Assembly (NCBI GenBank): GCA_963833125.1
Contig: CAWHWX010000032.1
Coordinates: 16,187 to 80,186 of the forward strand
Origin: Candidatus Bathyarchaeota archaeon
GTDB taxonomy: Archaea > Thermoproteota > Bathyarchaeia > 40CM-2-53-6
Direction: 5' to 3'
DNA length: 64,000 nucleotides
Shown here: piece by piece, positions 18,600 through 63,930 of the stretch
How the letters are laid out: each line of letters begins with the position of its first letter
How positions within the stretch are numbered: position 1 is the first letter of the stretch
Program-made: the position numbers and the translations under genes
The notes under the pieces: generated by a model
What the model was told of the DNA's origin: nothing
The model's input: the letters and a program-made list of their open reading frames with translations, nothing else
Databases searched by the model: none

Positions 18600-18604
18600 G
18601 CATT
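18600..18604 (+). repeat. Target-site duplication GCATT (tRNA-proximal copy)
   Basis: Directly precedes TGT at 18605; identical to 63926-63930. Confidence 0.85.
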
Positions 18605-18669
18605 TGTAGATTCTCATACTGTTTGTCAAATTCTCATACACCGTGTCATTTCTCTCAAACTGCGTGTCA
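18605..18669 (+). repeat. tRNA-proximal transposon end with three closely spaced TnsB-type sites
   Basis: TCTCATACTGTTTGTCA (18612), TCTCATACACCGTGTCA (18632), TCTCAAACTGCGTGTCA (18653). Confidence 0.88.
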
Positions 18670-18871
18670 CTGCGGTTGTTGACTTAATCTGATAAGCCAA
18701 CTAGAAAAGAGAAACGCCATCCCGCAATTGTCTTCTACAGTTACGGGGAGCTAGCCATGATAGTCCACAGATAGATTGAGGAGGTTGCGGGACTATGAAT
18801 GATTACTCGTTGGATCGATAAGCGCTAGTTTTAAGCGGTTGATGCGTCACTATCAGAAGTGTTTGCCCGCC

Positions 18872-19942
18872 ATGAACCCGAAATTCGTTGATCTCTTCTC
18901 GGGCATTGGCCTCGGATCTTTGGGTCTCGTTAGAGCCGGGTTCGAGATCGCTGCGGCAGTAGATATTGATCCAGAAGCGTGCGCGGTCTATAAGGAGAAC
19001 CTTGGAGTCGAACCCATTGTGGGTGACCTGCGGCACTTATCGGGGTCTGACATACTGAAACGGATCGGTCTCCGACGATGGAGAATTATCGCTGTGCGTG
19101 GGTTGTCCTCCGTGTCAAGGGTTCTCAACTCTGAGGAAGACGCGGCTCAAGAAATGGGAGAGAGATGGGCGCAAATCGCTGCTGAAAGTGTTTGCCCAGC
19201 GCGTGTGGACGAGCTCTTTCCGAAAATCGTAGTTTTCGAGAATGTGAGAGGAATAACACTTGGACAGAACCGCAGATTCTTGAAGGATTTTATGGCTCAC
19301 ATGAAGCGTCTCGGTTACTATCTCGACTTCAGGGTCTTGGACTCGGCGTATTACGGCGTGCCCCAGCACCGGCTCAGATTCATCCTAGTAGGGAGCAGGG
19401 AACTTCCTCCGAGTCTTCCGGAGGAGACGCACTCGAACCCGAGGTCTGACAACGAGAAGCCGCGGTGGAAGACCGTCAGGGACGCGATCGCAGACTTGCC
19501 CCCCCTTGAAGCCGGTCAGAGAGACGAAAACATTGCGCTTCATGAGGCAGCCGCACATTCGGAGAACGCGCTCAGAATAATATGCAGTATCCCGGCAAAC
19601 GGAGGCGGGAGAAAGAGCCTTCCCAAGAAACTATGGCTGCCGTGCCACAGGAGGCTTGCGAAGAGGAAGCAGCGCGGAGCGGAGAGCATCTATGGGAGGA
19701 TGCGGTGGGACGAGCCTTCCCCGACTATAACCACCAGAAGTCACATTCCAAGCTGCGGCCGATTCGTACACCCTTCGCAAAACCGTGGCATCACGCTGCG
19801 GGAGGCAGCGCGGCTGCAGAACATACCAGACGACTTCAAGATTCGGGCACGTGCCAAGGACCAAGCCGCTATTTGGATTGGCAACGCGATGCCACTTGCC
19901 CTGGCAGAAGCGCTAGGCCGGGAAATAATTCATCTCATTTAA
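18872..19942 (+). CDS. dcm: DNA (cytosine-5) methyltransferase (compensating frameshifts ~19080-19200)
   Basis: DLFSGIG, ENV, YGVPQHR.R, HPSQNRGITLREAARLQ and IGNA motifs; catalytic GCPPCQGFS lies in an alternate frame near 19100. Confidence 0.9.
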   Translation: MNPKFVDLFSGIGLGSLGLVRAGFEIAAAVDIDPEACAVYKENLGVEPIVGDLRHLSGSDILKRIGLRRWRIIAVRGLSSVSRVLNSEEDAAQEMGERWAQIAAESVCPARVDELFPKIVVFENVRGITLGQNRRFLKDFMAHMKRLGYYLDFRVLDSAYYGVPQHRLRFILVGSRELPPSLPEETHSNPRSDNEKPRWKTVRDAIADLPPLEAGQRDENIALHEAAAHSENALRIICSIPANGGGRKSLPKKLWLPCHRRLAKRKQRGAESIYGRMRWDEPSPTITTRSHIPSCGRFVHPSQNRGITLREAARLQNIPDDFKIRARAKDQAAIWIGNAMPLALAEALGREIIHLI

Positions 19943-19973
19943 GCGTCCGCCCAACTATACGGCATTGGTCTGA

Positions 19974-20405
19974 ATGCCGCGCCGAAGGGACAAGTTCTCG
20001 AAGGCGAAGCGCAGCCTAGTCATGTCCCAAATCCGGAGTAAGAACACCGGGCTGGACGTTTCGATGCGGAGAACTCTGCGGAAGGCCGAGATCAAGTTTG
20101 AGGCTTACCCCAAAATGTACGGCAACCCCGACTTCCTAGTCGAACAATGCATCGCTCTGTTTTGCGACAGCAGTTTCTGGCACGGACGAAACTGGAGAAA
20201 ACTGAAGCAGCAGCTCACGAATGGTTCGAACGCGAAATACTGGGTCGAGCACATAGCTAAGAACAGAAGCCGAGACCGGCTCGTGAATGCGACGCTCCGA
20301 AGGCACGGGCTCAAGGTGATCAGGTTTTGGGATGATGAAATATTCAAGCGTCCAGAGGCTTGCGTGAGAAGAATTAAAGCCGCCAAGCGGCTTATGTCGA
20401 CTTAA
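19974..20405 (+). CDS. vsr: Very short patch repair endonuclease
   Basis: RSLVMSQIRSKNT, GNPDF, FCDSSFWHG, NRSRD and IRFW motifs. Confidence 0.93.
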   Translation: MPRRRDKFSKAKRSLVMSQIRSKNTGLDVSMRRTLRKAEIKFEAYPKMYGNPDFLVEQCIALFCDSSFWHGRNWRKLKQQLTNGSNAKYWVEHIAKNRSRDRLVNATLRRHGLKVIRFWDDEIFKRPEACVRRIKAAKRLMST

Positions 20406-20426
20406 GCAATTGAGAGTGCGAGTTGC

Positions 20427-22428
20427 TTGACCGATCCTCATTCGCCATATGTGATGACGATCTCCCGAACGACCGTAGACAAATTGGGAATCAAACTGTA
20501 CGACAAGGCGTCCGCCGTGGTTGCGGAACTCATAGCGAACGCCTACGACGGAGACGCCGAGAACGTGACTGTAAAGATACCACTAAACCGCTGGCTGTCC
20601 ACAAAGTCTGAAGGGAAGGTGGTCGATCAGGGCCTAGAAATATCCGTTGAGGACGACGGGCACGGAGTAGAGCCCGGTCGTGTCAACGGCTTTTACCTCA
20701 CGGTGGGAAAAAACCCTCGAGAGGACCCCGGGAGAGGGCCGGTTTCGCCCGAGAAGAAGCGGCCGATATTCGGGCGCAAGGGCATAGGTAAACTCGCGGC
20801 CCTTCGGCATCTGCAAAATCATCGAGGTTGATTTTACCGGAGGAACGAAAGACGAAGCGAATCCAGCGCGGGAGTATCGTATCGCGCACTTCATCCTGAA
20901 CTATGACGAGATAAATTTCGACACCGACGAGCCCTACTACCCGAAGGTTGGGAAAGATGACGGCAAGTTATCGACCAAGAGAGGAACGGTCGTAACACTC
21001 AGAAACTTCCTCTACAGACGCACTCCGGACGAAGAAACTTTCCGTCACCAGCTACAGCGGATCTTCGGCCTCCAGCTCCCGGATTTCAAGATCGTGGTCG
21101 AGAACACCGAGACAGGGAACAAATTCGTCGTCGGTCAGCTCGATGTTGAGATCGAGGAGGAGACGAAGATCACGGTGGACGACAGGCCCGTCGAGATGCC
21201 TGACCACTCTATCCTGCCCGTCAGCGGATACGTCGCTTACGCCAAGAAGCCCTACAAATACGAGGAGGTGGCAGGGGTGCGGATCTACGCTAGAGGAAAA
21301 CTCGTCTCATCAACGAGAGATTTCGGACTGAAGGCAGGGTTCACAGGAGAACACACGCTAAGGTCGTACCTGACAGGCGAGATACACGCGGACTGGCTAG
21401 ACGATGAAGAGGATCTCATCCACACGGGTCGCCAAGACATACTATGGGACTCAGAAAGAGGAGAGCCGTTCAAGGCTTGGGGGCAGACGCTCCTCAAAGA
21501 GCTCGGAAAGAAAGCATGGACTCCGATGAAGCAGAAAGCTTACAAAGTGTTCCTTGAGAAGTCCGACCTTGAAACCAAGGTTTGGGATCGATTCGGTAAG
21601 ACACCTGTCGCAGATACGGCCATGGCTCTCGGCAAGGCCATCGGCCAGATTGCCGCTATAGAAAGCTTAGACGATCCAGAGTATGTCAAAAGACTGACTG
21701 AGATTGTACTCACGACAGCGCCCCATAAGATGCTCGTAGACACACTCACTGAGATCGCCGAGACGGCGGTCGAGGGTCCGCTGGATGTCGTCGTCGGGCT
21801 GTTCAACGACGCGGGACTCGCAGAAGCGGCCTCGATGGGCCAGATAGCCCTTGAGAGAGTCGATGCCATCGAGAAGCTCGAAGAGAAGCTCGGTGCTAAC
21901 CCTCCGGGGTATGAGAAAGAGCTACAGAAAATTCTGGAAAAATCTCCCTGGCTGATGCACCCGGAGTGGACAGTTCTTCAAGCGAATAAGCCATTTGAAG
22001 AACTCCGCACCGCCTTCGAGAAATGGTACGAGCTCAAATACAACAAGAAGATAGCCACGAAATCGATTGATTTGCAGACGAAGCCGGATTTCATAATGCT
22101 CGCGGTTTCCACCACCGTGGAGATCGTGGAAATTAAGAAGGCACAATGGGCGCTTACCGACGAGGAGTTCAGCAGGCTGCGAGGCTACTACGACGCCATA
22201 GAGCAGTTCATGAAGGACAACCCGGATTTCAGAAAAGAATTCCCGCGAACACACCTCACACTCATCTGCGACAAAGTGAACCTCTCAAGAAACATCCAAC
22301 TGGCCTTCGAGAAACTAGAGGGCGATGGTGTGTTGACCCGGAAGACTTGGTGGGAAACGCTAGCAAAAACGAAAAAAGTACACGAACAGTTCTTAGAGCA
22401 ACACCAGCGTCCAGCAGCGCCGCCTTAA
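20427..22428 (+). CDS. GHKL (MORC/Hsp90-like) ATPase with C-terminal PD-(D/E)XK nuclease domain (frameshift near 20805)
   Basis: ELIANAYD, VEDDGHG and GRKGIGKLA motifs; C-terminal KPDF...VEIKK. Confidence 0.85.
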
Positions 22429-22882: not shown

Positions 22883-23580
22883 ATGAATACTCACAACATC
22901 CGTGATTTGTGCACATAATCAGGATGCACGTACGTGTTCGAATTGCATTGAACTGCTACCCGCCTCATTCTGGGACAGACTAACGTGGAGGCGCTTCTCT
23001 CCAGGCATTGGCATCTATCATGTGACCGAACTGACACAATGCTTGGCTCGAGCATACTTCGAGAGAACCAAACCCACTCAAGAAACGGTCGAATCCGCAT
23101 GGGCAAAATTGCGAGGTTCCTTGCTTCACTACGCGGATAGGTCACTAGGCTGGAGCGAACTTCGGTGTCAAAATGAACTTCGAGCACGATAACGAAACAA
23201 TCACAATTGTTGGCCAAGTTGACGCGTACGATCCCGAAACAGCGACCATCTATGATCTTAAGACATCACGTTTTGTTAAATGGCAACATGAGAAAGGCTT
23301 CCTCCCTCGACAAAACCATCGCGCACAGATCCAGTCCTATTACACCATGTTGGATTCGTACGCTATCCCAATAAAACGGCTTGTCTTGATCTATGTGGAC
23401 GACAAGAATATCCTCGCCAAAGAAGTTCCACTAGGTTACCGCAAGGAATGGATGATCCGGAGAGCTTCGATTCTGCATAGGGCGTTGAGTGGGAGTCAGA
23501 TTCCTAAACCCGAACCTGACAATTGGTGCAAGTACTGTCCGTTCGTTCAAGTCTGCCCGGCGAAGGGAGGTGCAACCTGA
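22883..23580 (+). CDS. cas4: Solo Cas4-like PD-(D/E)XK nuclease with Fe-S Cys motif (frameshifted near 22900 and 23172)
   Basis: YHVTELTQC, GSLLH, GQVDAYD, IYDLKT, QIQSY and CKYCPFVQVC motifs. Confidence 0.8.
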
Positions 23581-24808
23581 ATGGGTGGATGCCTCCCCGT
23601 ACACCCACAGCCACGTGAGGGTGAATCGCTCACATCATGGATTGATCACGTTACACGATGCAATGGCATTACAATTCGACAGTTGTTGTCACATTGGGTG
23701 AGCGAGGCTGACTGGAGATACAGGGACCTTGACTTTCTGAAAATAGACGAGCTGAGAATACTTGCCGACCTTGCACGCGTTCAAGGTGGAACGGGCAAGC
23801 TGCGCAGTATGGTACTAACACCCTGGAAGGCGGTATTCTCAGAACCTAGGAACGAAATGGATCGCAAAGGTTGGGTTTGCTCGCGAGCGACAATTCGATA
23901 TTGTCCAATCTGCTTACAAATTGAAGAGCCATACTTCAGGTTATCGTGGCGCCTCCTCTTCCTTCCCCTCTGCGGCCGTCATGGGGTAGTGCTGCAAAGG
24001 GGCTCCTCGAGAATTATGCCAAATCCGAGTGAAGCGCCTCTGATTAAACCAACTAACTGCACCCTATTGTCACGTTTTAGTTCTTCTGGAATTGGAATTC
24101 TTGAATCACAAGCTCTTTCCCAGGGTTTTGGCTGGTCAGATAGTGGACAGGAATTTTTCCTTGTCCTTCTTACCCTGGTGAGGTACCTCAATCTCTACTT
24201 GCAACGCCGAACCGCTTTGGATAAGCGATTTGAAAGCCCACGGACTGCCTACCGCACCGCCTTTCGATTGGCGAAAGAATGAGGCTGTAGCGGTGCTTCT
24301 GATTGAAAGAGCTCTTGGTCTAGTTGAGGAATGGCCGAGAAATATCGGGAGGTTTGTCCGAGCGAATAGAACCCGCTTCAACAGATTACGCGTGGAGTAT
24401 GCTGCCCACTTCCCTAAGACACTAAGGGCTCTGAACGCGGAAAACATCGAACATAATGCTATCAGCAGCGTTGAACATGAGATTGAAAATTTACCTGATT
24501 ACAAGGAACGCCCAGACGAAGACCGAGTAAGACGCGCCGTTCAATACTTGCTGGAAACAAACGTTCCAGTCTCCCTAAGAGAGGTCGGTAAAATCACTAA
24601 AGTGAGTTTCGAACAGCTGAAGAACGAGGAAAAACTGAACAAAATCGTACTAGAAGGAAAGCGAGTGTTCAGATTTAAGCAAGAAGATGAGATTCAAAAC
24701 GCCATTACGGTGTTGCGTGGAAGGGGACTATATCCATCGGTCGGGGCTATTGCTACATATCTTGGAAGATCTCATCGATATCTGCATTCACATAAGATCA
24801 GAACATGA
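23581..24808 (+). CDS. tniQ: TniQ/TnsD-family target selector 1 (~409 codons, C-terminal HTH-like repeats; frameshift near 24230)
   Basis: PVHPQPREGESLTSWI, RDLD, YCPICL, YFRLSWRL..LPLCGRHGVVL; tail VSLREVGKITKVS and PSVGAIATYLGRS. Confidence 0.88.
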
Positions 24809-24827: not shown

Positions 24828-25565
24828 TTAATCCTTCAACGCAGAAACCGCCCAATCAATAGAGTCCTGGAGGCCACTGCCAGGACTCTTCTTCTCAATG
24901 AGTACGGCAGCCGTCTTTATGTTGACTTTTTCATTGATAACCTTCAAAAACTGTTCCAATTTTGAAAAAGCATCCCGGGTCGAGCCATCTTCGACGACGA
25001 CCATCAACACGCCTTGTAAACCCTCCCATATGTTTTCCACATGACCCCCGTCCTGAAGGTCCAGCAGCTTGCCTCCTAAAGCGAGGATATCTTCATCCAC
25101 AAGATTGTCTAATACAATAATCCCCAGGAAACGCGCATTGCCTCCTACCGAAATACTATCGTCGTAAGTATATACAATGTCAAAATTGTGGATGAAAGTT
25201 GTACCTTTCACCTTAAGATGCTCATCAGTTTGAACATTGAATGATGTTCTTACATTCAGCAGTTCTCCTATGACGAAACCTCTAGTCGGGTAGTATAACT
25301 TTGCAATAATACTTTCAACAACGGATTTTCGCTTCGGAACAACTCGATAGATTTTTCTTCTTCCTTCGCTTTTGATCGCTACCAGAGACAGAAGCCTTAA
25401 TCGCTGCAATACGAGATGGATTGACGGCTGCTTTTTGTGAAGCGCTTTTGCGATCTCGGCCTCAGTAACTCCGTCGGTTTCGATTATGAACTTGGTCGAT
25501 TCGGCTAAGACCGGGCTTTCCCGCAGGATAGCATAGAGCTCAGCCTCACTGATCCCTTGGCTCAT
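24828..25565 (-). CDS. Winged-HTH regulator with nuclease-fold-like C-terminal domain
   Basis: GVTEAEIAKALHKKQPSIHLVLQRL...EGRRKIYRV; C-domain VKGTTFIHNFDIVY. Confidence 0.7.
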   Translation of the reverse strand: MSQGISEAELYAILRESPVLAESTKFIIETDGVTEAEIAKALHKKQPSIHLVLQRLRLLSLVAIKSEGRRKIYRVVPKRKSVVESIIAKLYYPTRGFVIGELLNVRTSFNVQTDEHLKVKGTTFIHNFDIVYTYDDSISVGGNARFLGIIVLDNLVDEDILALGGKLLDLQDGGHVENIWEGLQGVLMVVVEDGSTRDAFSKLEQFLKVINEKVNIKTAAVLIEKKSPGSGLQDSIDWAVSALKD

Positions 25566-25659: not shown

Positions 25660-26472
25660 ATGCCACGCACCTTCCCAGTGAAACCAAACTACGGAGTCGA
25701 GATTGGTGTTATGGAGCCGGTTGAGATTTCTTCGTCGAATGAACCTGCGAGGAAGATTCGGCCGAACTACAGGAGTTCCACAGGCTTCTACGTTACTCGT
25801 AAAGGAAAAGCACTTGCTTTTGAATCAAAACAAGAACGAGACGCACTTCTCACCCTTGACTTTGACCCAAGTGTGCGCGATCTTGTCACTCAGCCACTGA
25901 GAATTGGAAACTATGTGCCGGATTGCCGTATAGAAACGACTTTTGATCTGACCGTTATTGTGGAAATAAAGTCAGAGAGCGAACTTGTTGAGAAATGGAT
26001 AGAGCTATCAGCGAAGTATTCTGCAGCAAATGATTACTGCTTCGCCAAAGGCTTTGAGTTTGTGTTTGTTACTGACTTCTACATCTACTACTCAGAACAA
26101 TATCGACTCAATATACTGAAAAAAGTAAGATTTCTTGGAGCCCGTCCAGAAGAATCCGACGAACAAGTTCAGGAACAACTCGTTAAGCTCCTAGGTCAGA
26201 TGCCATTATCCGTCGGTTCACTAGCCAAGAAGATCGAAGCGCCACTGGACGAGGCCAACAGAATTCGAGAAATTTGCAGACTTCTCTGTTCTGGTTCAGC
26301 TCACATTTTCAAAACCCCCACCCCACACCTCAAGGACTGCTTAATCTCAACCACCGAGGAAGGATGTGACACATTCCGTTCCCATGTCTTCAGCTTCGAG
26401 CAAATGAAAGAACGACTTCGAACCCATCCTTATCGACAACTCGAAGGAGGATTTGCCAGACTTGTTAATTGA
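25660..26472 (+). CDS. tnsA: TnsA endonuclease
   Basis: FESKQERD..L.LDFDPSV...TQP...YVPD...IVEIK; helical C-domain; overlaps tnsB start. Confidence 0.92.
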   Translation: MPRTFPVKPNYGVEIGVMEPVEISSSNEPARKIRPNYRSSTGFYVTRKGKALAFESKQERDALLTLDFDPSVRDLVTQPLRIGNYVPDCRIETTFDLTVIVEIKSESELVEKWIELSAKYSAANDYCFAKGFEFVFVTDFYIYYSEQYRLNILKKVRFLGARPEESDEQVQEQLVKLLGQMPLSVGSLAKKIEAPLDEANRIREICRLLCSGSAHIFKTPTPHLKDCLISTTEEGCDTFRSHVFSFEQMKERLRTHPYRQLEGGFARLVN

Positions 26473-32089: not shown

Positions 32090-32094
32090 AAAAA

Positions 32095-52134: not shown

Positions 52135-52140
52135 CCCGAA

Positions 52141-53238: not shown

Positions 53239-53285
53239 GGGCCCATTTGCTAATAATTAACTGTTAATCGCACTACGACTCTTGT

Positions 53286-56196: not shown

Positions 56197-56633
56197 ACTG
56201 GAAGATGGAGCTGACATAATACCAGTCAAACCTCGAAGAGGGTGTCCCGACCCTCACTAGGCGACACACGTACTGAACTTGGCGTCGGGAGAAAGGTTGG
56301 TTGCCTCGTGAGACAACAGATGCTGATGCGTGTTATTTCGTTGATGCTGCCGGTAACCGTTACCTCCGATTTTTCGTCTCAACTAATCTGCTCGAATCTT
56401 GGGCATAAGAACAATGTCGTAATTGAGGACATTTGTTAGCAGGCCAACCTACCTTGGGTAGCTCATCATTCGCTACAGAAATACGCTAAAGGAATCTCGA
56501 CCCCGCTCTAGCGATACCGCCTGACGGCCTGGGGAAGTCATGTTTTTCCGAGTTCACCTGAATGTCTTCGAACCTAAGCCGTAACACGATTAAATTTTCA
56601 GGATTCTCATCTTTTTCAGCTACTCAATAATTC

Positions 56634-57148
56634 CTAGCGAACTGGTTTGGACAGAACGATCTGTTTGATGTCGGGTAGTTCTATTCGCGGATCCTCTTTG
56701 ACAACTCTCGCTACCACCTGGGTGCTAGTCTGACTCGATGCCTGCCATATTAATAATAGAATCAAGCTTCTGCACATAGTCCTGCCTGTTCTTCGCTCTG
56801 ATCAAGACAACAAAATCCATATCGCCGAGAACGAAGTACACTGATCCGACACCAGGTAGATGAGCTAATCTGCGGCCCACCTTCTTCGTGATATCCTGGT
56901 CCATATCTTGCCCTAACTAATACTATTGCGAGGTAGTCATATCCCAACCGAGAGGCATTGACCTTCGCATGATAACCTTCAAGGACACCACTGTCCTCAA
57001 GTTTCCTTACCCGATAGTGTACTGTTGACTTAGGAATCCCAAGCTTTTCGGCCAACTGATGAAGGGGCATCCTGCAATCGCGCTGCAACGCCCGGAGAAG
57101 TTTTCTATCAATGGCATCCAATTGCTCTTCGGAGGACATAACCTTCAC
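56634..57148 (-). CDS. Lrp/AsnC transcriptional regulator, frameshifted
   Basis: LDAIDRKLLRALQRDCR...STVHYRVRKLEDSGVL; tail VVARVVKE. Confidence 0.88.
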
Positions 57149-57328
57149 AACTGTGTTATGTTAGCGTTTGCTTAACAAATTTCCTGTTTCTACTTACATA
57201 CCCAAGCATTTCACTCGCATCATCAATGGACAACCTTAAGACAGCTTCGGAAAGAATGCTGGCAACTCTGGCTCACTGAAAGCTAGGAGCGATTAGACTA
57301 ACGCGGACTAGTGAAGTTTGAAATCGAA

Positions 57329-58401
57329 TCAAACGCGCATAAGACTCTCGACATCGAGTCCGTACTCTTTGCAGGCCTGCATCAGAGGTTGCCAAGCTTT
57401 CTCAGAGATCGGTATCCCGTCCCTTAATCTCCTTTCACGCTCATTACTCTCCGGCTCACCCCGGGATCAGAATCTCCTTGACACCTTCAGCCTTCGGGGA
57501 ATTCTTAACCGATTTTACAAGCTTGTCGGCTTGATGCTTGAAATCCTCCAGCGGAACGAAATTGTCAATCTTCAGAGCCATCATGAAGACTCCATTAGTT
57601 AACCACCCTGACGTCATATCTTGGCTGCTGCCCGCTCCGTAAGGACGCCAGCCAGCATGTCAACAACCAAACCCAGACCATACCCCTTGTAACCTCCAAA
57701 TGGCAGCAAGGCTCCTCCCAGCTTAATGCGCTCAGGAGGCAGCGGTGGTTCGTACAGATCTGCCGGGTTTGTGGATGAGGGCCATGGGAGTCGACGATCC
57801 ACCCAGATGGCAATTGTTCTCCTCTGAAGAGAGCTGCCCGAACTTTACCCTCTGCTGCCGCACTTGTCGCATAGTCGACGACAACAGCCTTCTGGTGACC
57901 TGCGGGAATTGCGTAAGAGAGCGGGTTTGTGCCTAAAACCGGAGTTCTTCCCCCGTATGGTGCGACGTATGGTTCGCAGTTGGCCGTGATGAAACCAATC
58001 ATCCCGCTAGCTGCTGCCATCTGGGCGTATTCTGCCAATCGCCCTATGTGATTGCAATTGAAAACACCAACCGCCCCAACTCCCGTTCTCCCAGCCTTAT
58101 CGATTGCGACTTCCATCGCCTTTGAACAAGCCATTTGACCGAAGCCCCATTTTCCATCAACAAGCGCAGTGGAGGGACTATCAGCTCTAACCTCAATCTT
58201 TGCTCGTGGCTTGATAGTGCCGCTTCGAACACCTTGAAGGTAGATGATCAGGTTTGGAGTAACGCCGTGTGAATCCACTCCTGCCAAATTTGCGTTGACC
58301 AGAAACCTGGTGACCATTTCCGCCTCTTCGTCGGAAGCGCCCGCAGCTTTGAGAAGATTCTGGGAGATGAGGGTTAATTGTGTATTTGTAATGGTAGGCA
58401 A
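57329..58401 (-). CDS. Ldh_2-family dehydrogenase, frameshifted
   Basis: GVDSHGV, HIGRL, LGTNPL and PFGGYKGYGL motifs. Confidence 0.88.
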
Positions 58402-58593: not shown

Positions 58594-58726
58594 GGAGCGC
58601 AGAAATTTTCAGACCAATGACAGATAGTGTGGCACAATCAGAGTCATAGCACTCAACTAACTTGACGGATAATCTGGTAAATTACACTTAATCAACGCGT
58701 TCCCAATGAGACTCTGGCAACCGACA
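58594..58726 (+). repeat. Decayed internal copy of the distal transposon end
   Basis: Colinear with 63791-63925: TGACAGATAGTGTGGCA (58618), TGACGGATAATCTGGTA (58663), terminus CTCTGGCAACCGACA. Confidence 0.8.
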
Positions 58727-58746
58727 ACTGAATTGAATTGATCCAG

Positions 58747-59940
58747 ATGCGAGTCATAATAGTAGGTGCAGGCGTCACTGGACTGTTCACGGCTTACTAT
58801 ATGCTCAAGCACGGTCACTCAGTAACCCTCATCGATCGAAAGGACGGAAATTGCGTGTCGCTCTGGAACGCTGGCCTCATCACACCCTCGACGGCGCTCG
58901 CCCCGACGATGGGCATGTCAACGATTTTGTCTCAAATTCTTGGAGCAAGAGGTCCTATTCGAATTTCGCCGATTGAAATTATTACAAACTTAAGATGGTT
59001 TTCGATTGCCCTTAGGAAGGGTCTCACAGGACAAGAAGAGAGAATCTTACAACTCGGTCAAAGAAGTCTACAGATGTACTCTGAATTATTTGATGAAGAG
59101 TCCATTGAAGTCGATCTAAGAGAAGGCTTAGTTGATCTCTTCATGAGTCAGGCTGAGGCGAAAGCGACCGCAATGATAACCAACGGTCGATTTCTTGACC
59201 AAGAGGAGGCGAGTGAGATTGGATTTACAGACGTGGGGGGTGGTGTATTTCTCGATAGGGAATTTTCTTTGAATCCTGTGAAACTTCTGTACGAGTTGAG
59301 TCAAACAATAGCGAGACGGGGTGCTAGACTCGAAGTCGGGCAGCAGGTTCAAGTGAACTCCGAAGGCGACTCAATAGTGTCGGTCTCCGTCAATCAACAA
59401 AGAATTGTCGGCGACAAATACATCCTCACAGCGGGTCCCTGGAGCAGACAGATCTGCAAAACGCTAGGTTACGATCCGCCAATACTGCCGGCTAGGGGAC
59501 TAGTGATTTTATTTGCAACAAATGGTGAGGAGATAGTAAGAAACCCAGTTTTCTTCGAAGACTACGGGATGGGGATCGCCCAGCATGATCCGAATACGCT
59601 GAGAGTCACAGGGTTCTTTGAACTCGTCGGTTTCGAAGATAGCTACAGCACATCCCGGAAAGCGTGGCTACTCGACACTCTTAAAAAACACTTGAGGAAA
59701 TGCGTGACGCTGCGTTACCTTAGTGAAGGTGTGGGATACAGGCCGTGCACACCCGATCAATTACCAATTATCGGGGCAGTTCCGAAGTTCACAAACCTGT
59801 TCATGGCTTCCGGAAATTGCCGACTTGGTATGACTCTTGCTCCTGCCACCGCCGAAATTCTTTGTCACCTGCTTGAGGGCGGAACCATGCTCGATAGATG
59901 GGACGACTTCTCTCCGCTGAGGTTCTCGAATGCTATTTGA
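58747..59940 (+). CDS. D-amino acid dehydrogenase-family FAD oxidoreductase
   Basis: IVGAGVTG, SLWNAG, GYRPCTPDQLPIIG and LGMTLAPAT motifs. Confidence 0.9.
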   Translation: MRVIIVGAGVTGLFTAYYMLKHGHSVTLIDRKDGNCVSLWNAGLITPSTALAPTMGMSTILSQILGARGPIRISPIEIITNLRWFSIALRKGLTGQEERILQLGQRSLQMYSELFDEESIEVDLREGLVDLFMSQAEAKATAMITNGRFLDQEEASEIGFTDVGGGVFLDREFSLNPVKLLYELSQTIARRGARLEVGQQVQVNSEGDSIVSVSVNQQRIVGDKYILTAGPWSRQICKTLGYDPPILPARGLVILFATNGEEIVRNPVFFEDYGMGIAQHDPNTLRVTGFFELVGFEDSYSTSRKAWLLDTLKKHLRKCVTLRYLSEGVGYRPCTPDQLPIIGAVPKFTNLFMASGNCRLGMTLAPATAEILCHLLEGGTMLDRWDDFSPLRFSNAI

Positions 59941-60002
59941 TTGGAGTTATACAATAATGCGAAGGTAAGTCTCAATTAGCTGACGTCAGTACTCATTGAA
60001 GA

Positions 60003-61125
60003 CTAGCTCATCCACCAATCCATTCTGCATTTGGTGAGCGTTTCGCAACCGCCCTCTGTCACCAGAACCATATCTTCCAGCCTAAAGGTCCCTTCCGGAA
60101 CAGTGAAACTCGGTTCCACGCAGAGTATCATGTTCTTCTCCAAGCGTACATCGGACGTTTCGTCGAGGGCAGGATATTCGTGCATTTCCAGGCCGTTGCC
60201 GTGACCAGATGCCGTCCAGCCCCCATGTTTTTCGTATCCCGCTTCCTGGATCGCTTTCTTGCCTATACGGTGTAGCTCTGAGCATTTCATTCCGGGGCGA
60301 ATTGCAGCGATAGTTTGTTTGAGATTTTCCGCCTCGAATTCGAGTAACTCACGCTGCGTTTTCGTTGGTTTACCGGCCACCTTCATCCGAGTGATGTCAC
60401 CGCGATATCCCTGATAGGCCCCGCCCATGTCAAGGAGACACAGATCGCCCTCTTTCAATACCTTGTTTGTTGGTAGTGGCGCAACTAGCTGCGTTCTGCT
60501 CCCAGATCCGAATTCTGATACGAACGACAATTGGCCTCCGTTTAACAGAACGGTCGACTCTGCGGCCGACGAGTATCTCCCACTCCTTTTTCCAGTCTCT
60601 ACCGCCTCCATCCCTGCTTTGAGAGCCATATCCGATATTCCTGCCGCGTTTCTCATCAGCGTGACTTCAGTCGGGCTTTTCTACCACTCTCATCTCGTCC
60701 ACTATTTTCGTCGCTGCGAAACTTACATCGGGTAATTGCTTCTTTAGGGCAAGAAAGACCGGTGCCGGGAAATAATTCCATCCGGCTATTCCAACACTTC
60801 CGCGGCTCACTTTGGACTGAGTCAGAATATTGGCAACTCCCAGCGCAAGATCTGAGGACACCTTGACCTCCAAGGGGCATGTCTCCCGAGCCCTATACTC
60901 GTCCCATGCGGAATCGGTTAGCATCAAACTTGAGTCTTTTGTGATCACCACGATCGTTTGCTCTCTTTCTTTTCCAAAGAAGTTTGCAAAGTATAACACA
61001 TTGCCTGGAAGATACTGGCGGTTAGATGAATAGGCTATCAGAGCTTCAAGGTTTGAAGTCTCAATTCTTTCCCTAGCGGTGTCAATTCGTCTTTCAAACT
61101 CATCATGTCCGATTTCCCCTGACAT
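60003..61125 (-). CDS. M24 (Xaa-Pro peptidase-like) hydrolase, frameshift near 60665
   Basis: LDMGG...GDITR, GHGNGLEMHE, VEP and RLEDMVLVT motifs. Confidence 0.88.
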
Positions 61126-61160
61126 TAGTTCTGCCTCTGTCCGCGGAAAGCTTGAAATTC

Positions 61161-62823
61161 CTATTCAGGAGGAATGGTCTTGTAAAGTAGTTCCATGTCG
61201 ACACCGTGGCTCATACGATAGTGTTTCACGGCGTAGTAAATTATGGAACCAGCAATGATCGCGATAATTCCGTACGAAATTCCGGTCGAGTCGGCATAGC
61301 TAACGAAAGCCTGTGTCGAAGTGATGCTGATCGTCGTCATCGTATATGCTACAAACAATCCCATACCTCCCACAAGGAACGCCAACCAGAGCACGGCCAT
61401 CAAGACCACGGCGGGAACTCCAGCGACCTTTTTCAACCACCACCCTTTTGGCGCATTCTCGAATTGGTCTGGCCTTCTCCTCTTGAGAAGTAATACGTTA
61501 ACAGCCGGAAAGAAGATGGAAGGCAGGAGCAGTATTACACCCCAATAGACAAGCGTCGACCGGACTCAATCCCAGAACTTGAGCAGCATAGAGCCCGTAA
61601 GTAAGAAGCACTATGAAGACAGTAGCTTTTACAGGAGTACTTCTCTTCTCATCTACTGAAGAAAACCAATTTGGCAACATCCTGTCCATCGAAAAGGCGA
61701 AGAGAAGATGCGTTACCATTGTGATCTCTGGAATAGTGTTCGCGAGGTTCAGGAAGCATAACGCTAAGATCCCAAGAATCATTGCTATCACCGCTATTCC
61801 GGGGTTTGCAAGTGCTAGGAGTATGGGAAGCATGGGAGGCAGACCCAAAGGTGTCTTCGCCGAACCGCTCAAGTAAAGAAAACTCCAAGCATTGACAAAG
61901 TTGTACCCAACTCCGTAGATGAATGGTACCCAGAGTAATCCAGCCAGCACCATCACGAGCACTATACCGGTAATTTCTGAGATTAGGAGATTTCTTGAGA
62001 CGTTTCCCTTGATCTCTCCGGCTAGATAGGTCTTGTTCTGAAAGCCAGTATAGAAAAATAGTCCATTAAATATCAACCCGCCCCAACTCAACGCGGTATA
62101 GGAGGCCGGACTCCATCCCGCAGCGTTTGCATTGCTGATTACCTGAGTCTTCGTTACTCCAGCCACACTCATCAGATTTTGATCGATATTATTAGTTCCC
62201 GATGCCAAGAACAAGGCAAGCAAGAGAAAGGCTGCCGCCAGAGAGGCTAGGCCAAGAATTGTGTTGGTTTTGAGCCACGTGCGAGTAGGTCTCAGTCCTA
62301 CCACGTAGAGAAGAAAGATCAAGACTGGTATGCCTGTTATGAATAGCCCGGGTATCGATAGAATCCAGTTTCCTACTGTTGAAAGAGTTCCTCCGTTTGG
62401 CATGAACGAACCTATTCCAAGCGAAACTCCAAACAGATACACTGCATAGTAGAAATTGAACTCGGTGAACGTTAGCCAGGCCAGCAGTGCGGTCCATCCT
62501 TCAATGAATCCCAAATAGGGAGTGAGTATTCTGCTCGTGAACACGTAATCGCCACCGCTGCGTGGCATGACACCCGAAAGGAACGCATACTGCGGAGCCA
62601 AACACAGGAACATCACTCCTGAAAGCAAGATTGCCCAAGAGTATACTGGGAGTGGCCCGAGAAGATCTACCGGATAGAGTACCAAATATATTATCGGAAC
62701 CGCTACATATGAGCCGGCAACGCACGTGAAGGCATACATTGCCGCATTGAATGGGCCTATCTCCTTAACGAGTCCCGTGGCATCACGTGTAAATACCGGG
62801 TAAGTCCGTTTCGCCAAAAGCAT
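61161..62823 (-). CDS. APC-family amino acid permease, frameshift near 61550
   Basis: FTRDATGLVKEI, MPRSGGDYVF, FAFSMDRMLP; terminal IPPE. Confidence 0.9.
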
Positions 62824-62973
62824 CCGCCGTAAGAATGAATCTGTATATATTTAAAATATTATCATGTTAGGTATTTTCCGATGAGTGAAATTCAATGAAC
62901 GGCCTGTAAGGCGATGTTCAACCTCAAGGATCGATTATCGTTGGCTAGTTGAAATACACTCATGTTAAGTAGG

Positions 62974-63687
62974 TTAGCAGGTCAGTAGCTTTCCAAATCC
63001 GCTAATCCGTTCATGTAGCCCAGCTTTTCGTAGGGCGTCCCAAATTGTGGCTTGATTGCTGGTTATTACTGGTTTTCCAAGGTCACGCTCCAGGATGTCG
63101 AGGATCTCGATTGTTCGGAAATTAGTACAACTTATGAAAACGCCATCATTCTCCGAACTGTCAACGCTCTTTGCAACTTGATATGCATCCTCTGGTCGCA
63201 ATCTGCCGATATCCGAATCCTGTCCGATTCCAAGCCCCTTGATGTTGGTTACCGTGAACCCATGCTCATCGAAGAACTTCTTGACAATGTCGTTGATATC
63301 ATCGGTGTAGGGTGTCGCAATTGCGACCCTCTTCATATCCAATATCTTGAGCGCATTCCGAATTGCTGTCGCTGTTGTCGTTGCCTTCGACCCAACAGCG
63401 GATTCCATCTTCTGAATCATCTGTTGATCGTATGCATCTCCTTTCATGAAACTCCCGATCGTACAGCAGAAGCATACAACATCGGGCTTCAACACAGCCA
63501 ACATCTTGCAAGCTCCCTCGGCTTCATCAGAAAGCCCTGCCAAGCTGGCCTCGTCAACGGTACCCGGAAACCACATTCTCGTAAAGTGAATCGAGACCCC
63601 TTCCGGGAGCATTTCTGGAAACTCATGCTCAGGCGTCGTGTCAGGGGCCACAAGCAAAGCCCCAATCTTCGCTCTCCAACCCAACAT
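62974..63687 (-). CDS. Maleate cis-trans isomerase / Asp-Glu racemase family (EutA-like)
   Basis: MLGWRAKIG start; FCCT and FISCTNF Cys pair; GKPVITSNQA. Confidence 0.9.
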   Translation of the reverse strand: MLGWRAKIGALLVAPDTTPEHEFPEMLPEGVSIHFTRMWFPGTVDEASLAGLSDEAEGACKMLAVLKPDVVCFCCTIGSFMKGDAYDQQMIQKMESAVGSKATTTATAIRNALKILDMKRVAIATPYTDDINDIVKKFFDEHGFTVTNIKGLGIGQDSDIGRLRPEDAYQVAKSVDSSENDGVFISCTNFRTIEILDILERDLGKPVITSNQATIWDALRKAGLHERISGFGKLLTC

Positions 63688-63814
63688 AATGCTATGCCTA
63701 CCGAGAATCCTCAGAACGAGGCTTAATGGTTTACCGTCCAAGGAAGGGTTGATACGCCCGGCGCCATGCTGCGATCGTATGTCCTCCGGGGGAGCTTCGG
63801 CATTTTCAGGCCGA

Positions 63815-63925
63815 TGACAAATAGTGCGACACAATCCTAGTCATACCACTAACCTGATGACAGATAGTCTGGCAAATTTCCGCTAACGAAGCCATTTCGA
63901 ATGACAATTACTTTGGCAATCGACA
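63815..63925 (-). repeat. Distal transposon end with three widely spaced TnsB-type sites
   Basis: TGACAAATAGTGCGACA (63815), TGACAGATAGTCTGGCA (63858), TGACAATTACTTTGGCA (63902), then ATCGACA terminus. Confidence 0.85.
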
Positions 63926-63930
63926 GCATT
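63926..63930 (+). repeat. Target-site duplication GCATT (distal copy)
   Basis: Directly follows terminal ACA; identical to 18600-18604. Confidence 0.85.

What the first reader, a model, noticed from the sequence alone, without database searches (positions are those of the whole stretch)
18600..63930. Complete 45.3-kb tRNA-targeted Tn7-like transposon in an archaeon
Seen: GCATT|TGTAGATTCTCATACTGTTTGTCA...TGACAATTACTTTGGCAATCGACA|GCATT, with the terminal 24 bp 17/24 identical as inverted repeats. The tRNA-side end has three 17-bp sites at 20-21 bp period and the far end has three at 43-44 bp period. tnsABC-tniQ point away from the packed end. The element begins 21 bp after the tRNA CCA. Known: 5-bp TSD, TGT/ACA ends, asymmetric TnsB-site arrays and fixed-distance oriented insertion downstream of a conserved gene are Tn7 hallmarks. 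To my knowledge these are described almost entirely in bacteria. Inference: TniQ/TnsD-directed homing to an archaeal tRNA gene.
Basis: partly seen in the sequence, partly recalled or inferred. Interest (0 to 1): 0.92.

Follow-up and report, generated by a model that had tools for sequence, protein, structure and literature searches.

The report
Tn7-like transposon beside archaeal tRNA-Thr
A 45-kb Tn7-family transposon sits just downstream of a threonine tRNA gene in an archaeal genome, a real and well-delimited example of a kind of element first reported in archaea in a 2025 preprint.

Summary
A 45,321-bp element (window 18605-63925) begins TGT and ends ACA. It is flanked by a perfect 5-bp duplication (GCATT). 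Three 19-bp sites are packed at the tRNA-side end and three are spread out at the far end. Its first base lies 21 nt after the CCA of an intron-bearing tRNA-Thr(CGU). It encodes TnsA, TnsB, TnsC (TniB type) and two TniQ proteins. A Cas4-family nuclease gene abuts the longer TniQ.

The host is archaeal: an archaeal-type ribosomal protein L3 gene lies 5 kb upstream, and the flank is syntenic with congeners. A second, divergent element (G016, 34.5 kb, fused TnsAB, TSD GTTAC) sits at the same tRNA in a congeneric genome, again with its packed end next to the tRNA.

Three corrections:
- Archaeal Tn7-like elements, including one next to a tRNA-Thr, were described in bioRxiv 10.1101/2025.07.27.667033.
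- The predicted empty site was not found. The element lies 9 nt inside a larger island bounded by 23-nt direct repeats. One soil-metagenome contig joins the tRNA directly to the far side of that island.
- tnsB, tniQ1 and the Cas4-like gene are frameshifted as assembled. Six of 22 conserved chromosomal genes are too, so the breaks may be assembly errors.

Verdict: a new member of a known kind.

The parts
18472..18583 (+). tRNA-Thr(CGU) gene with a D-arm insert of about 22 nt and a 13-nt anticodon-loop intron; the presumed attachment gene
   Evidence: Rfam RF00005, 40.7 bits. ARAGORN calls Thr(cgt) after in-silico removal of the D-arm insert. The same 26-nt 3' end occurs in 19 loci of 19 congeneric or related genomes.
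18573..18595 (+). 23-nt core: the last 11 nt of the tRNA plus 12 nt downstream. It is repeated exactly at G000:C18:188674-188696 and is the putative attL of a larger integrated island.
   Evidence: exact 23-nt copy. In one search, a contig of run X2 leaves the window at 18595 and runs on into the C18 sequence.
18600..18604 (.). [quoted passage not shown]
18605..18669 (+). tRNA-proximal (R-type, packed) end: TGTAG tip plus three 19-bp sites at 18610, 18630 and 18651
18839..22428 (+). Cargo: restriction-modification module. C5 cytosine methylase 18839-19942, Vsr 19974-20405, and a GHKL-type type II restriction enzyme in two ORFs (20427-20831 and 21094-22428).
   Evidence: Pfam: PF00145 150.6 bits, PF03852 53.6 bits, PF13589 49.2 bits. 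PADLOC: DruM2/MTase_II, Vsr and REase_II PDLC03419.
22980..23580 (+). Cas4-family PD-(D/E)XK nuclease gene with one frame change near 23167-23171. Its stop abuts the tniQ1 start.
   Evidence: Pfam PF01930 30.7 bits and PF12705 29 bits. tblastn with the intact 199-aa G016 protein gives 62-65% identity in two frames.
23581..24808 (+). tniQ1: long TniQ (405 aa in G016) with one frame change at about 24207/24209
   Evidence: PF06527 58.6 bits. 61-66% identity to G016 TniQ1 in two frames. Family alignment A4.
24828..25565 (-). Winged-helix regulator-like gene, divergent from tnsA
   Evidence: Weak hits only: TrmB PF01978 19 bits, below its cut-off; PADLOC Csa3/CARF-wHTH, 19.6-23.4 bits.
25660..26472 (+). 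tnsA (270 aa)
   Evidence: PF08722 30.7 bits against a cut-off of 26.5. 32% identity to the N-terminal 251 aa of the G016 TnsAB fusion. E...PD...EIK motif read by eye. No hit among PDB sequences.
26453..28450 (+). tnsB, in three ORFs as assembled (26453-27583, 27439-27813, 27938-28450)
   Evidence: Weak rve_3 and Mu-transpos_C hits. tblastn with G016 TnsAB aligns aa 344-815 in frame 2, with aa 558-703 better in frame 1. The DDE residues are encoded (DHT, DNG, ER, read by eye).
28447..29325 (+). tnsC (TniB-type AAA+, 292 aa)
   Evidence: PF05621 153.4 bits. PDB: VchTnsC of Tn6677 69.1 bits, ShTnsC 48.3 bits, Tn7 TnsC 24.3 bits.
29450..30352 (+). tniQ2 (short TniQ, 300 aa)
   Evidence: PF06527 63 bits. 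40% identity to G016 TniQ2.
30205..31460 (+). Cargo fragments: a PD-Lambda-3_A-like gene in two ORFs (30205-30857) and a family-B DNA polymerase C-terminal fragment (30942-31460)
   Evidence: PADLOC PDLC03986 40.2 and 18.9 bits. PF00136 26.8 bits.
34351..58401 (.). Metabolic cargo: SHMT, M20 peptidase, Amdase-like, Ldh_2 (partial), luciferase-like monooxygenases (partial), aldehyde dehydrogenases, M24 peptidase, MR/MLE enolase, phosphotriesterase, an ABC transporter, an AsnC regulator
58616..58726 (-). Degenerate internal copy of the far (L-type) end, ending ...CAACCGACA and followed by ACTGA rather than GCATT
   Evidence: The seventh weight-matrix hit, at 58618-58636. Sequence. 100 invariant columns in the alignment of 58590-58740 with 63787-63940, and similarity stops at CGACA.
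58738..63834 (.). Outer cargo segment between the relic end and the true end: FAD oxidoreductase, M24 peptidase (two ORFs), amino-acid permease, a second Amdase-like gene
63815..63925 (-). Far (L-type, dispersed) end: three 19-bp sites at 63902-20, 63858-76 and 63815-33, with tip ...TCGACA
63926..63930 (.). [quoted passage not shown]

Best explanation
Window 18605-63925 is a Tn7-family (heteromeric TnsA+TnsB) cut-and-paste transposon in an archaeal chromosome. It lies 21 nt downstream of the CCA of tRNA-Thr(CGU), with its packed-site (R-type) end next to the tRNA.

Shown:
- the termini, the 5-bp duplication and the 3+3 asymmetric site arrays;
- the gene set tnsA, tnsB, tnsC, tniQ2 plus a Cas4-like-tniQ1 pair;
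- the archaeal flank;
- a second, divergent element at the same tRNA in a congener, with the same end orientation.

Inferred mechanism:
1. TnsB binds the 19-bp sites and pairs the ends.
2. TnsA and TnsB cut both strands at each tip.
3. A TniQ protein bound to the tRNA gene body recruits the TnsC AAA+ adaptor.
4. TnsC positions the transpososome so that staggered 5-bp joining occurs a set distance downstream, outside the gene.

TniQ1 is my first candidate for the tRNA reader, at about even odds. It is the longer TniQ, with extra C-terminal helices, and it is 61-66% identical between the two elements while the core proteins are only 28-40% identical. TniQ2 may serve a second pathway.

The insertion went into DNA of a larger island already integrated at the tRNA 3' end. 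That island is bounded by 23-nt direct repeats. The element has grown by accretion, as shown by a decayed inner L-type end at 58616-58726. It carries restriction-modification, defence-like and metabolic cargo. Whether it is still mobile cannot be told from this assembly.
For: Ends:
- The junctions, the TSD and the 17/24 inverted repeat (P = 3e-6) are.
- A weight matrix of the six sites hits nothing else in 3.07 Mb except one site in an internal relic end.

Proteins:
- Pfam gives TnsA 30.7 bits (cut-off 26.5), TniB 153.4 bits and TniQ 63 and 58.6 bits.
- TnsC matches solved VchTnsC (69.1 bits), ShTnsC (48.3) and Tn7 TnsC (24.3).
- The intact G016 TnsAB matches solved PseCAST TnsAB (152.8 bits), Tn6677 TnsB (134.8), ShCAST TnsB (128.5) and Tn7 TnsB (105.5). 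It aligns to window tnsA and tnsB.

Archaeal host:
- Archaeal L3 (TIGR03626, 395.7 bits, cut-off 308.7) lies at 12808-13812 on the same contig.
- The tRNA carries introns.
- The left flank is 84-87% identical to G019 and 81% identical to G016 up to the tRNA.

Second element (G016, a 1.57-Mb contig):
- Its tips are TGTCG...CGACA and its TSD is GTTAC on both sides. It starts 35 nt after the same tRNA's CCA.
- Near-end sites end at positions 24, 44, 66 and 91. Far-end sites end at 24, 58 and 103.
- It carries TnsAB, TnsC, TniQ2, TniQ1 and Cas4-like genes.

Occupancy: of 19 loci in 19 genomes with the same 26-nt tRNA 3' end, 2 carry such ends.

Selector: TniQ1 is 61-66% and Cas4-like 62-65% identical between the two elements. 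TniQ2 is 40%, TnsC 31-36%, TnsB 28-37% and TnsA 32%.

Island.
Against: - No empty site with a single GCATT was found. The 75-nt right flank matches nothing in 60 relatives beyond chance and nothing else in the same genome.
- The only unoccupied allele seen lacks the whole island. Presence or absence of the transposon alone is therefore not shown.
- The contig stops 75 nt beyond the element.
- As assembled, tnsB, tniQ1 and the Cas4-like gene are frameshifted.
- Targeting rests on two insertions at two different distances (21 and 35 nt). In G016 the tns genes point towards the tRNA-proximal end, the opposite of the window.
- TnsA has no hit among PDB sequences, and its Pfam score is only 4 bits over the cut-off.
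- The roles of TniQ1 and TniQ2 are untested. A Foldseek search with the TniQ1 model gave no match at E <= 0.001.
Confidence: 0.85

Rival explanations
1. The mobile unit at this tRNA is the larger island, integrated by a site-specific recombinase at the tRNA 3' end. The Tn7-like element arrived as a passenger already inside that island and did not itself choose the tRNA.
For: - An exact 23-nt direct repeat of the tRNA 3' end plus 12 nt lies at C18:188674-188696.
- A 151-nt contig of run X2 is 100% identical to 18460-18595 and then runs on as GAGGCTTTTTTTCCT, the sequence behind the C18 repeat. So the whole island is absent there.
- G016 synteny places C18 beyond the island.
- The element starts only 9 nt after the core.
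Against: - In a free island the att site would carry only 11 nt of tRNA. At the C18 copy, similarity to the tRNA stops at the core. A Tn7-type end 21 nt after a full tRNA is then better explained by insertion after integration.
- G016 has a different Tn7-like element at the same tRNA, and no 12-nt or longer repeat of the tRNA end was found within 60 kb.
- No integrase gene was found in the window. The PF00589 hits in G000 lie on contigs C16, C22, C28 and C12.
Confidence: 0.08
2. The true transposon is shorter and ends at the inner L-type end (58726). The outer 5.2 kb and its end belong to a separate older remnant, so the 45.3-kb unit is not one element.
For: A second, recognisable copy of the far end lies at 58616-58726 and stops exactly at CGACA.
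Against: - The inner copy is decayed. Only 1 of its 3 sites passes the matrix threshold, and the tip-proximal site has lost 4 nt.
- It is followed by ACTGA, not GCATT.
- The outer end has three intact sites, a 17/24 match to the left tip and the matching GCATT.
Confidence: 0.05
3. The element is bacterial DNA joined to an archaeal contig by mis-assembly or binning error.
For: - The MAG has 6.99% estimated contamination.
- Two contigs (C18 and C23) cover the same G016 region.
- The nearest genome hit for TnsC in the species collection was a bacterial MAG at 32% identity.
- The contig ends just beyond the element.
Against: - The junction lies inside one contig, next to an intron-bearing archaeal tRNA, with the TSD on both sides.
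- GC is 48.0% for the element and 50.1% for the genome.
- The related G016 element lies within a 1.57-Mb contig and is flanked on both sides by DNA syntenic with this genus.
Confidence: 0.02

Closest known systems
Archaeal Tn7-like elements of Thesier, Hsieh, Schargel, Wingo and Peters (bioRxiv 10.1101/2025.07.27.667033), especially Clade V from a 'Ca. Bathyarchaeia' MAG
   Same: - Archaeal host known only from a MAG.
- TnsA/B, TnsC and TniQ gene set.
- Insertion next to a threonine tRNA gene taken as the att site.
- Cargo includes defence genes.
- The G016 element, like Clade V, has fused tnsAB (for the paper; here).
   Different: - The window has separate tnsA and tnsB, two tniQ genes and an adjoining Cas4-family nuclease. 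The words 'Cas4' and 'nuclease' do not occur in the preprint's text.
- It is 45.3 kb, against 8.4-25.8 kb for the preprint's four elements with both ends.
- It lies nested in another island and holds a relic inner end.
- Whether it belongs to Clade V could not be tested. The accessions are in supplementary Table S2, which I could not see.
Tn7 of Escherichia coli (TnsABC+D pathway into attTn7 downstream of glmS)
   Same: - Heteromeric TnsA+TnsB transposase genes, an AAA+ TnsC and a TniQ-family selector.
- 5-bp duplication and TGT...ACA tips.
- Closely packed sites at the target-proximal end and spaced sites at the other.
- tns genes reading inward from the packed end.
- Insertion just beyond the 3' end of a conserved gene.

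The Tn7 features are recalled knowledge.
   Different: - The target is a tRNA gene.
- TnsC is the short TniB type (292 aa) and scores only 24.3 bits against Tn7 TnsC.
- There is no TnsE.
- About 7 kb of cargo plus the Cas4-like-tniQ1 pair lie between the R end and tnsA.
- The sites are 19 bp.
Tn6677 / PseCAST (type I-F3 CRISPR-associated transposons) and the Tn6022 group
   Same: They are the closest solved relatives of the core proteins: VchTnsC at 69.1 bits, and PseCAST TnsAB at 152.8 and Tn6677 TnsB at 134.8 bits for the G016 orthologue.
   Different: - No repeat array was found (Tandem Repeats Finder, 0 rows over 18000-64000).
- No Cascade or Cas12k gene appeared among the 59 window ORFs or ORF fragments scanned.
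- Targeting is presumably protein-only.
tRNA homing by TnsD/TniQ of type I-B2, I-D and V-K CASTs (for example CyCAST, Faure et al. 2023, PMC10293859)
   Same: A protein-directed insertion a few tens of nt downstream of a tRNA gene end. For CyCAST it is 30-33 nt downstream of tRNA-Leu (passage seen). Here the first base of the element is 21 nt (window) or 35 nt (G016) after the CCA. Both also have two TniQ-family selectors in one element.
   Different: - Bacterial (cyanobacterial) hosts with an RNA-guided second pathway.
- By sequence, the archaeal TniQ1 family matches solved TniQ/TnsD only in the Zn-ribbon region, at 15.7-19.7 bits for the nine matches at E <= 0.05 and 12.3-14.2 bits for five weaker TniQ chains.

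Membership tests
Tn7 family (heteromeric-transposase Tn7-like elements) | TnsB: a DDE transposase of the Mu/retroviral integrase type | tested here: met
   The window gene gives only weak Pfam hits as split ORFs: rve_3 18.2 bits and Mu-transpos_C 21.6 bits. It aligns over aa 344-815 of G016 TnsAB. G016 TnsAB in turn matches four solved TnsB proteins at 105-153 bits. D, D and E are encoded (read by eye). The reading frame is broken twice as assembled.
Tn7 family (heteromeric-transposase Tn7-like elements) | TnsA: an endonuclease partner, which sets these elements apart from Tn5053/Tn402-type elements | tested here: met
   PF08722 30.7 bits against a cut-off of 26.5. 32% identity over 253 aa to the N-terminus of the G016 TnsAB fusion, E = 1e-33. 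No hit among PDB sequences.
Tn7 family (heteromeric-transposase Tn7-like elements) | TnsC/TniB AAA+ regulator | tested here: met
   PF05621 153.4 bits. Solved TnsC proteins match at 24-69 bits.
Tn7 family (heteromeric-transposase Tn7-like elements) | TniQ/TnsD-family target selector | tested here: met
   Two genes: PF06527 at 63 and 58.6 bits, and 76.3 and 59.8 bits in the genome search.
Tn7 family (heteromeric-transposase Tn7-like elements) | 5-bp target-site duplication and TGT...ACA termini | tested here: met
   GCATT on both sides, TGT and ACA at the tips. In G016: GTTAC on both sides, with TGTCG...CGACA tips.
Tn7 family (heteromeric-transposase Tn7-like elements) | Several transposase-binding sites at each end, arranged asymmetrically | tested here: met
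   Sites are 3+3, with periods of 20-21 and 43-44. The motif is otherwise absent from the genome apart from the relic end. G016 shows the same pattern. Binding itself was not tested.
Tn7 family (heteromeric-transposase Tn7-like elements) | Site- and orientation-specific insertion next to a conserved gene | tested here: inconclusive
   Two different elements lie at the same tRNA-Thr in two species, both with the packed end proximal. They sit at 21 and 35 nt, with one insertion each. No clean empty site was seen.
Tn7 family (heteromeric-transposase Tn7-like elements) | Transposition activity and target immunity | not testable with these tools
   Needs a mate-out or in-vitro assay of the kind used in the preprint.
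CRISPR-associated transposon (CAST) | A CRISPR effector (Cascade or Cas12k) and a repeat array inside the element | tested here: not met
   No tandem repeats in 18000-64000. No effector family among the ORFs scanned. The only cas-like gene is a Cas4-family nuclease. ORFs under 90 aa and some unannotated ORFs were not scanned.
Integrase-type integrative island at a tRNA 3' end (for the surrounding island, not the transposon) | Direct repeats made of the tRNA 3' end, and an unoccupied allele lacking the DNA between them | tested here: met
   The 23-nt exact repeat. One 151-nt contig of run X2 joins the tRNA to the far side. This rests on a single low-depth contig (3.1x).
Integrase-type integrative island at a tRNA 3' end (for the surrounding island, not the transposon) | A tyrosine or serine recombinase gene inside the island | tested here: inconclusive
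   None in the window and none of the PF00589 hits lies on contig C18. The DNA between the end of C32 and the end of C18 is not assembled.

The most novel reading that the evidence does not exclude
The abutting Cas4-family nuclease and long TniQ (TniQ1) form a portable target-selector cassette that is exchanged between otherwise divergent archaeal Tn7 cores. TniQ1 reads the tRNA-Thr gene. The iron-sulphur PD-(D/E)XK nuclease is a new accessory factor of Tn7-type targeting, for example in end or flap recognition or in processing at the target. The short TniQ2 serves a separate pathway.

For this reading:
- The cassette is 61-66% identical between the two elements, while their TnsA, TnsB, TnsC and TniQ2 are only 28-40% identical.
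- The two genes abut in both elements.

Against it:
- The nuclease family is far commoner than TniQ1: 140 homologues against 17.
- Four other copies in related genomes have no TniQ1 within 1.5 kb.
Probability: 0.22. Interest if true: 0.7.

Novelty: new member of a known kind. Interest (0 to 1): 0.5.

Why it matters
Until 2021 a survey of 6,549 Tn7-like transposons reported none in archaea (PMC8649781, passage seen). The 2025 preprint found only 27 TniQ proteins in 13,858 archaeal assemblies, and only four elements with both ends.

This window adds a fully delimited element with both ends and a target duplication. At 45 kb it is larger than the preprint's four delimited elements (8.4-25.8 kb). 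With G016 it also gives a natural pair of divergent elements that share one tRNA-Thr site and one selector cassette.

That pair is useful material for three questions:
- which TniQ reads an archaeal tRNA gene;
- how the distance to the insertion point is set (21 against 35 nt);
- how such elements gather cargo, given the relic inner end and the nesting in another island.

It does not open a new category.

Tried and rejected
Empty-site and flank searches
- The 75-nt right flank against 60 relatives gave only chance-level hits; the best was 34 nt at 89% in G034. Against the own genome it gave nothing of 19 nt or more.
- The right flank of the G016 element against 40 relatives matched only part of a gene in G015. 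No clean empty site was obtained for either element.

Sequencing runs
- Laying X1-X4 gave the X2 junction described above. X4 showed only diverse relatives with other downstream DNA. No depth beyond 18636 in any run is a part without cover and counts for nothing.

Wider distribution
- The search for related loci in the species genomes with the two-sequence TnsC alignment gave one distant bacterial hit at 32%.
- In metagenome contigs with the five-sequence alignment it gave four distant loci (28-30%, GC 59-66%) with tnsB-tnsC-tniQ and no Cas4-like gene. The 54-60% relatives seen were not retrieved, so their context is unknown.
- In viral contigs with G016 TniQ1 it gave nothing.
- The weak TniB hits in G330 and G125 have no TniQ in their genomes. 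I dropped them as not Tn7-like.

Structure and complex
- The TniQ1 model has mean pLDDT 78.1. Foldseek against the PDB gave 0 matches at E <= 0.001. The two C-terminal three-helix units are read from the secondary-structure line only.
- Complex prediction of TniQ1 with the Cas4-like protein returned 'no answer' (score 0.00, mark 0.32). That is no evidence either way.

Decay versus assembly error
- A long-ORF coverage measure did not set the element apart: 0.644 against a genome mean of 0.677.
- The frameshift sites are not in long homopolymers.
- The comparison with G016 orthologues made me drop the reading 'decayed, immobile element'.

Host class
- No archaeal amoA was found (PF12942). The control rang nowhere, so this says little.
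- One Cas4-like homologue is named 'Candidatus Bathyarchaeia archaeon' by its source. That is a hint only. I did not try to identify the unnamed records.

Island recombinase
- Integrase hits lie at the starts of contigs C16 and C22. Nothing links them to the end of C32.

Full report
**1. The observation**

- GCATT occurs at 18600-18604 and at 63926-63930.
- The DNA between, 18605-63925, is 45,321 bp. It begins TGT and ends ACA.
- The terminal 24 nt match as inverted repeats at 17 of 24 positions. The binomial tail is 3e-6.

Six 19-nt sites of the form ATTSYCANAC-N4-TGTCA point inward from the tips.
- Three are packed at 18610, 18630 and 18651.
- Three are spaced at 63902, 63858 and 63815.
- At both ends the first site finishes at position 24 from the tip.
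- A weight matrix of the six sites, which match it by construction, was scanned over both strands of the whole 3.07-Mb assembly. It finds one further place, 58618-58636, inside the element.

Rfam finds one tRNA in the window, at 18472-18580 (40.7 bits), with CCA at 18581-83. Twenty-one nt separate the CCA from the element. ARAGORN misses the gene because it has an insert in the D arm as well as an anticodon-loop intron. After in-silico removal of the D-arm insert it calls tRNA-Thr(cgt) with a 13-nt intron (219 calls among 324 variants; 39 of the 40 printed were Thr).

**2. The genes**

On the + strand, reading away from the packed end:
- a cytosine methylase, Vsr, and a GHKL-type restriction enzyme in two ORFs (18839-22428);
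- a Cas4-family nuclease (22980-23580);
- a long TniQ, tniQ1 (23581-24808), whose start abuts the nuclease's stop;
- on the other strand, a weakly winged-helix-like gene (24828-25565);
- tnsA (25660-26472; PF08722, 30.7 bits);
- tnsB (26453-28450);
- tnsC (28447-29325; TniB, 153.4 bits);
- a short TniQ, tniQ2 (29450-30352; 63 bits).

TnsC matches the solved TnsC of Tn6677 best (69.1 bits), then ShCAST (48.3) and Tn7 (24.3).

Further cargo:
- a PD-Lambda-3_A-like gene and a family-B polymerase fragment;
- about 29 kb of metabolic genes: SHMT, peptidases, aldehyde dehydrogenases, an MR/MLE enzyme, a phosphotriesterase, an ABC transporter, an amino-acid permease and others.

There is no integrase, no repeat array and no CRISPR effector among the ORFs scanned.

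**3. The host is an archaeon**

- The same contig carries an archaeal-type ribosomal protein L3 gene at 12808-13812 (TIGR03626, 395.7 bits, cut-off 308.7).
- The tRNA has archaeal-style introns.
- The last 5-6 kb before the tRNA are 84-87% identical to G019 and 81% identical to G016, both of the same genus.
- GC is 48.0% for the element and 50.1% for the genome.
- I could not name the class. No archaeal amoA was found, but that search's control rang nowhere. One homologue of the Cas4-like protein is labelled Bathyarchaeia by its source.

**4. A second element at the same tRNA**

A search with TnsC in 60 relatives found one other genome, G016 (35% identity), directly beside the orthologous tRNA. 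That element lies in a 1.57-Mb contig.
- It starts TGTCGG 35 nt after the CCA.
- It ends ...CACGACA about 34.5 kb further on.
- GTTAC flanks it on both sides.
- Its near-end sites finish at positions 24, 44, 66 and 91. Its far-end sites finish at 24, 58 and 103. The packed end is again tRNA-proximal.
- It encodes an 871-aa TnsA-TnsB fusion, TnsC, TniQ2 (apparently split), an intact 405-aa TniQ1 and an intact 199-aa Cas4-like protein. The fusion's C-terminal part matches solved TnsB proteins at 105-153 bits.
- Here the tns genes point towards the packed end, the reverse of the window.
- Its cargo is different: OLD-family nuclease, HerA, SMC/Mre11-like genes, ParB and metabolic genes.

Identities between the two elements:

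| Protein | Identity |
|---|---|
| TnsA | 32% |
| TnsB | 28-37% |
| TnsC | 31-36% |
| TniQ2 | 40% |
| TniQ1 | 61-66% |
| Cas4-like | 62-65% |

The Cas4-like-tniQ1 DNA is 70% identical over 2 kb.

Of 19 loci in 19 genomes that share the 26-nt tRNA 3' end, only these 2 carry Tn7-type ends.

Such elements are rare in the samples searched.
- TniB was found in 4 of 401 genomes of the class. Two of those hits are weak and lie in genomes without TniQ.
- The TniQ1 profile was found in 1 of 401 genomes of a phylum sample, and that one is G000 itself.

**5. The element lies inside a larger island**

- The 23 nt at 18573-18595 (the last 11 nt of the tRNA plus 12 nt downstream) recur exactly at G000:C18:188674-188696 on the opposite strand, 3.8 kb from the end of that contig.
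- G016 synteny places C18 (and a second contig, C23) on the far side of the variable region.
- In run X2, a soil metagenome, four contig pieces are identical to the window's left flank and tRNA. One of them, 151 nt at depth 3.1, covers 18460-18595 and then continues GAGGCTTTTTTTCCT. Apart from one extra T, that is the sequence following the C18 repeat.
- G003 and G002 have similar ...AACCCGAG[G/A]CTT... sequences after this tRNA.

So an allele exists in which the tRNA is joined directly to the C18 side. The unit of presence or absence seen is an island bounded by 23-nt direct repeats. The Tn7-like element begins 9 nt inside it.

At the C18 copy, similarity to the tRNA stops at the core. A free island would therefore carry only 11 nt of tRNA. 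I infer from this that the transposon inserted after the island had integrated, reading the complete tRNA gene. This ordering is inference.

**6. A relic inner end**

58616-58726 is a decayed copy of the far end. The alignment with 63787-63940 has 100 invariant columns, and similarity stops at CGACA. It is followed by ACTGA.

The simplest reading is accretion. An ancestor ended at 58726 and a later transposition used an outer L-type end 5.2 kb away, taking the intervening genes along, after which the inner end decayed. This is inference.

**7. Are the genes broken?**

With G016 proteins as guides, tnsB changes frame twice, and tniQ1 and the Cas4-like gene once each. Several cargo genes are split as well.

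The same test was run on 34 long ORFs from G016 chromosomal regions. Twenty-two had orthologues of at least 55% identity in G000, and 6 of those 22 showed multi-frame matches. The X2 contig also differs from G000 by one T in a T-run. Assembly indel errors are therefore a sufficient explanation, and I do not call the element defective. The DDE residues of TnsB and the E/PD/ExK residues of TnsA are encoded (read by eye).

**8. Mechanism**

The anatomy fits the Tn7 scheme:
1. TnsB binds the 19-bp sites.
2. TnsA and TnsB make double-strand cuts.
3. TnsC bridges to a TniQ bound on the tRNA gene.
4. Joining with a 5-bp stagger takes place downstream of the gene, with the packed end proximal.

The spacer DNA between the tRNA and the insertion point is unrelated in the two genomes. 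That fits recognition of the gene rather than of the insertion point.

TniQ1 is the better candidate for the tRNA reader.
- It is conserved far above the core proteins in two elements that share only the target.
- Its family of 17 homologues of about 430 aa has a Zn-ribbon TniQ domain followed by a helical region with two conserved helix-rich blocks.
- Recent exchange of the cassette would explain the conservation equally well, and TniQ2 sits in the canonical position after tnsC.
- My odds are about 0.5 for TniQ1, 0.35 for TniQ2 and 0.15 for both.

**9. What is known**

- Benler et al. 2021 stated that no Tn7-like transposase homologues were found in archaea (PMC8649781, passage).
- The Thaumarchaeota mobilome paper mentions Tn7 only in passing (PMC6563490, passages).
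- The preprint 10.1101/2025.07.27.667033 reports 27 TniQ proteins in 24 of 13,858 archaeal assemblies, 16 candidate elements in 10 clades, and tRNA and nrdD attachment sites. It includes a 15.8-kb Bathyarchaeia element with fused tnsAB beside a tRNA-Thr, and it reconstitutes a Heimdallarchaeal element in E. coli. I read the abstract, all three parts of Results, the legends of the supplementary figures and tables, and term searches.
- Two full-text searches found no other paper on archaeal Tn7 elements.
- The preprint's text has no 'Cas4', 'nuclease', 'Nitroso' or 'Thaumarch'. I therefore cannot say whether G016 or a near relative is already among its elements.

**10. Verdict**

This is a genuine, well-delimited Tn7-family transposon at an archaeal tRNA-Thr gene, and a new member of a kind described in 2025. 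Points of added interest:
- its size;
- the natural pair of divergent elements at one site;
- the shared Cas4-like-TniQ1 cassette;
- the relic end;
- the nesting in an integrase-type island.

Confidence in the main reading is 0.85. Interest is 0.5.

Noticed in passing
window 18573-18595 and G000:C18:188674-188696: An exact 23-nt direct repeat of the tRNA-Thr 3' end plus 12 nt marks a larger integrated island that contains the transposon. One soil-metagenome contig (run X2) shows the island-free junction. The DNA between the end of C32 and the end of C18 is unassembled, and no recombinase gene was found for the island.
   Followed up: partly
G000 assembly as a whole (C18, C23, C32): Six of 22 conserved chromosomal genes, compared with G016 orthologues, align in more than one frame. 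The assembly seems to carry many indel errors, so 'pseudogenes' in this genome should not be trusted without reads.
   Followed up: partly
G000 contigs C18 (about 157-185 kb) and C23 (1-31 kb): Both contigs are syntenic with the same stretch of G016 at similar identity. The bin probably holds two related strains or a duplicated region, in line with its 7% contamination estimate.
   Followed up: no
window 30942-31460: An isolated C-terminal fragment of a family-B DNA polymerase (PF00136, 26.8 bits) lies just after tniQ2. It may be a remnant of another mobile element or virus.
   Followed up: no
L051:1888-2898 (G016 TnsC): G016 TnsC carries an internal duplication of about 37 aa that repeats the Walker A segment (GxPGNGK twice), as seen in the alignment with the window TnsC.
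   Followed up: no
G016:C1:1567642-1568226; G010:C361:2937-3521; G010:C300:6182-6763; G002:C20:4920-5249: Further copies of the Cas4-family nuclease (62-79% identity) occur in three congeners with no TniQ1 within 1.5 kb. The family has at least 140 metagenomic homologues and looks like a common mobile-element gene of this lineage.
   Followed up: partly
G000:C16:1240-3700: Three tyrosine-recombinase genes lie in tandem at the very start of contig C16, with three more PF00589 hits (one of them marginal, 27 bits) within 13 kb. Another lies at the start of C22. This points to other integrative elements at contig breaks.
   Followed up: no
window 18472-18583: The tRNA-Thr(CGU) gene has two intervening sequences, in the D arm and the anticodon loop. 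ARAGORN does not detect it, so tRNA-linked islands in this lineage will be missed by standard tRNA scans.
   Followed up: yes
window 37780-38583 / 62974-63834 and 39091-39714 / 57595-58401: The cargo holds paralogous pairs: two Amdase-like genes and two partial Ldh_2 genes. One member of the Amdase-like pair lies inside and the other outside the relic inner end, which fits cargo assembled from related pieces.
   Followed up: no
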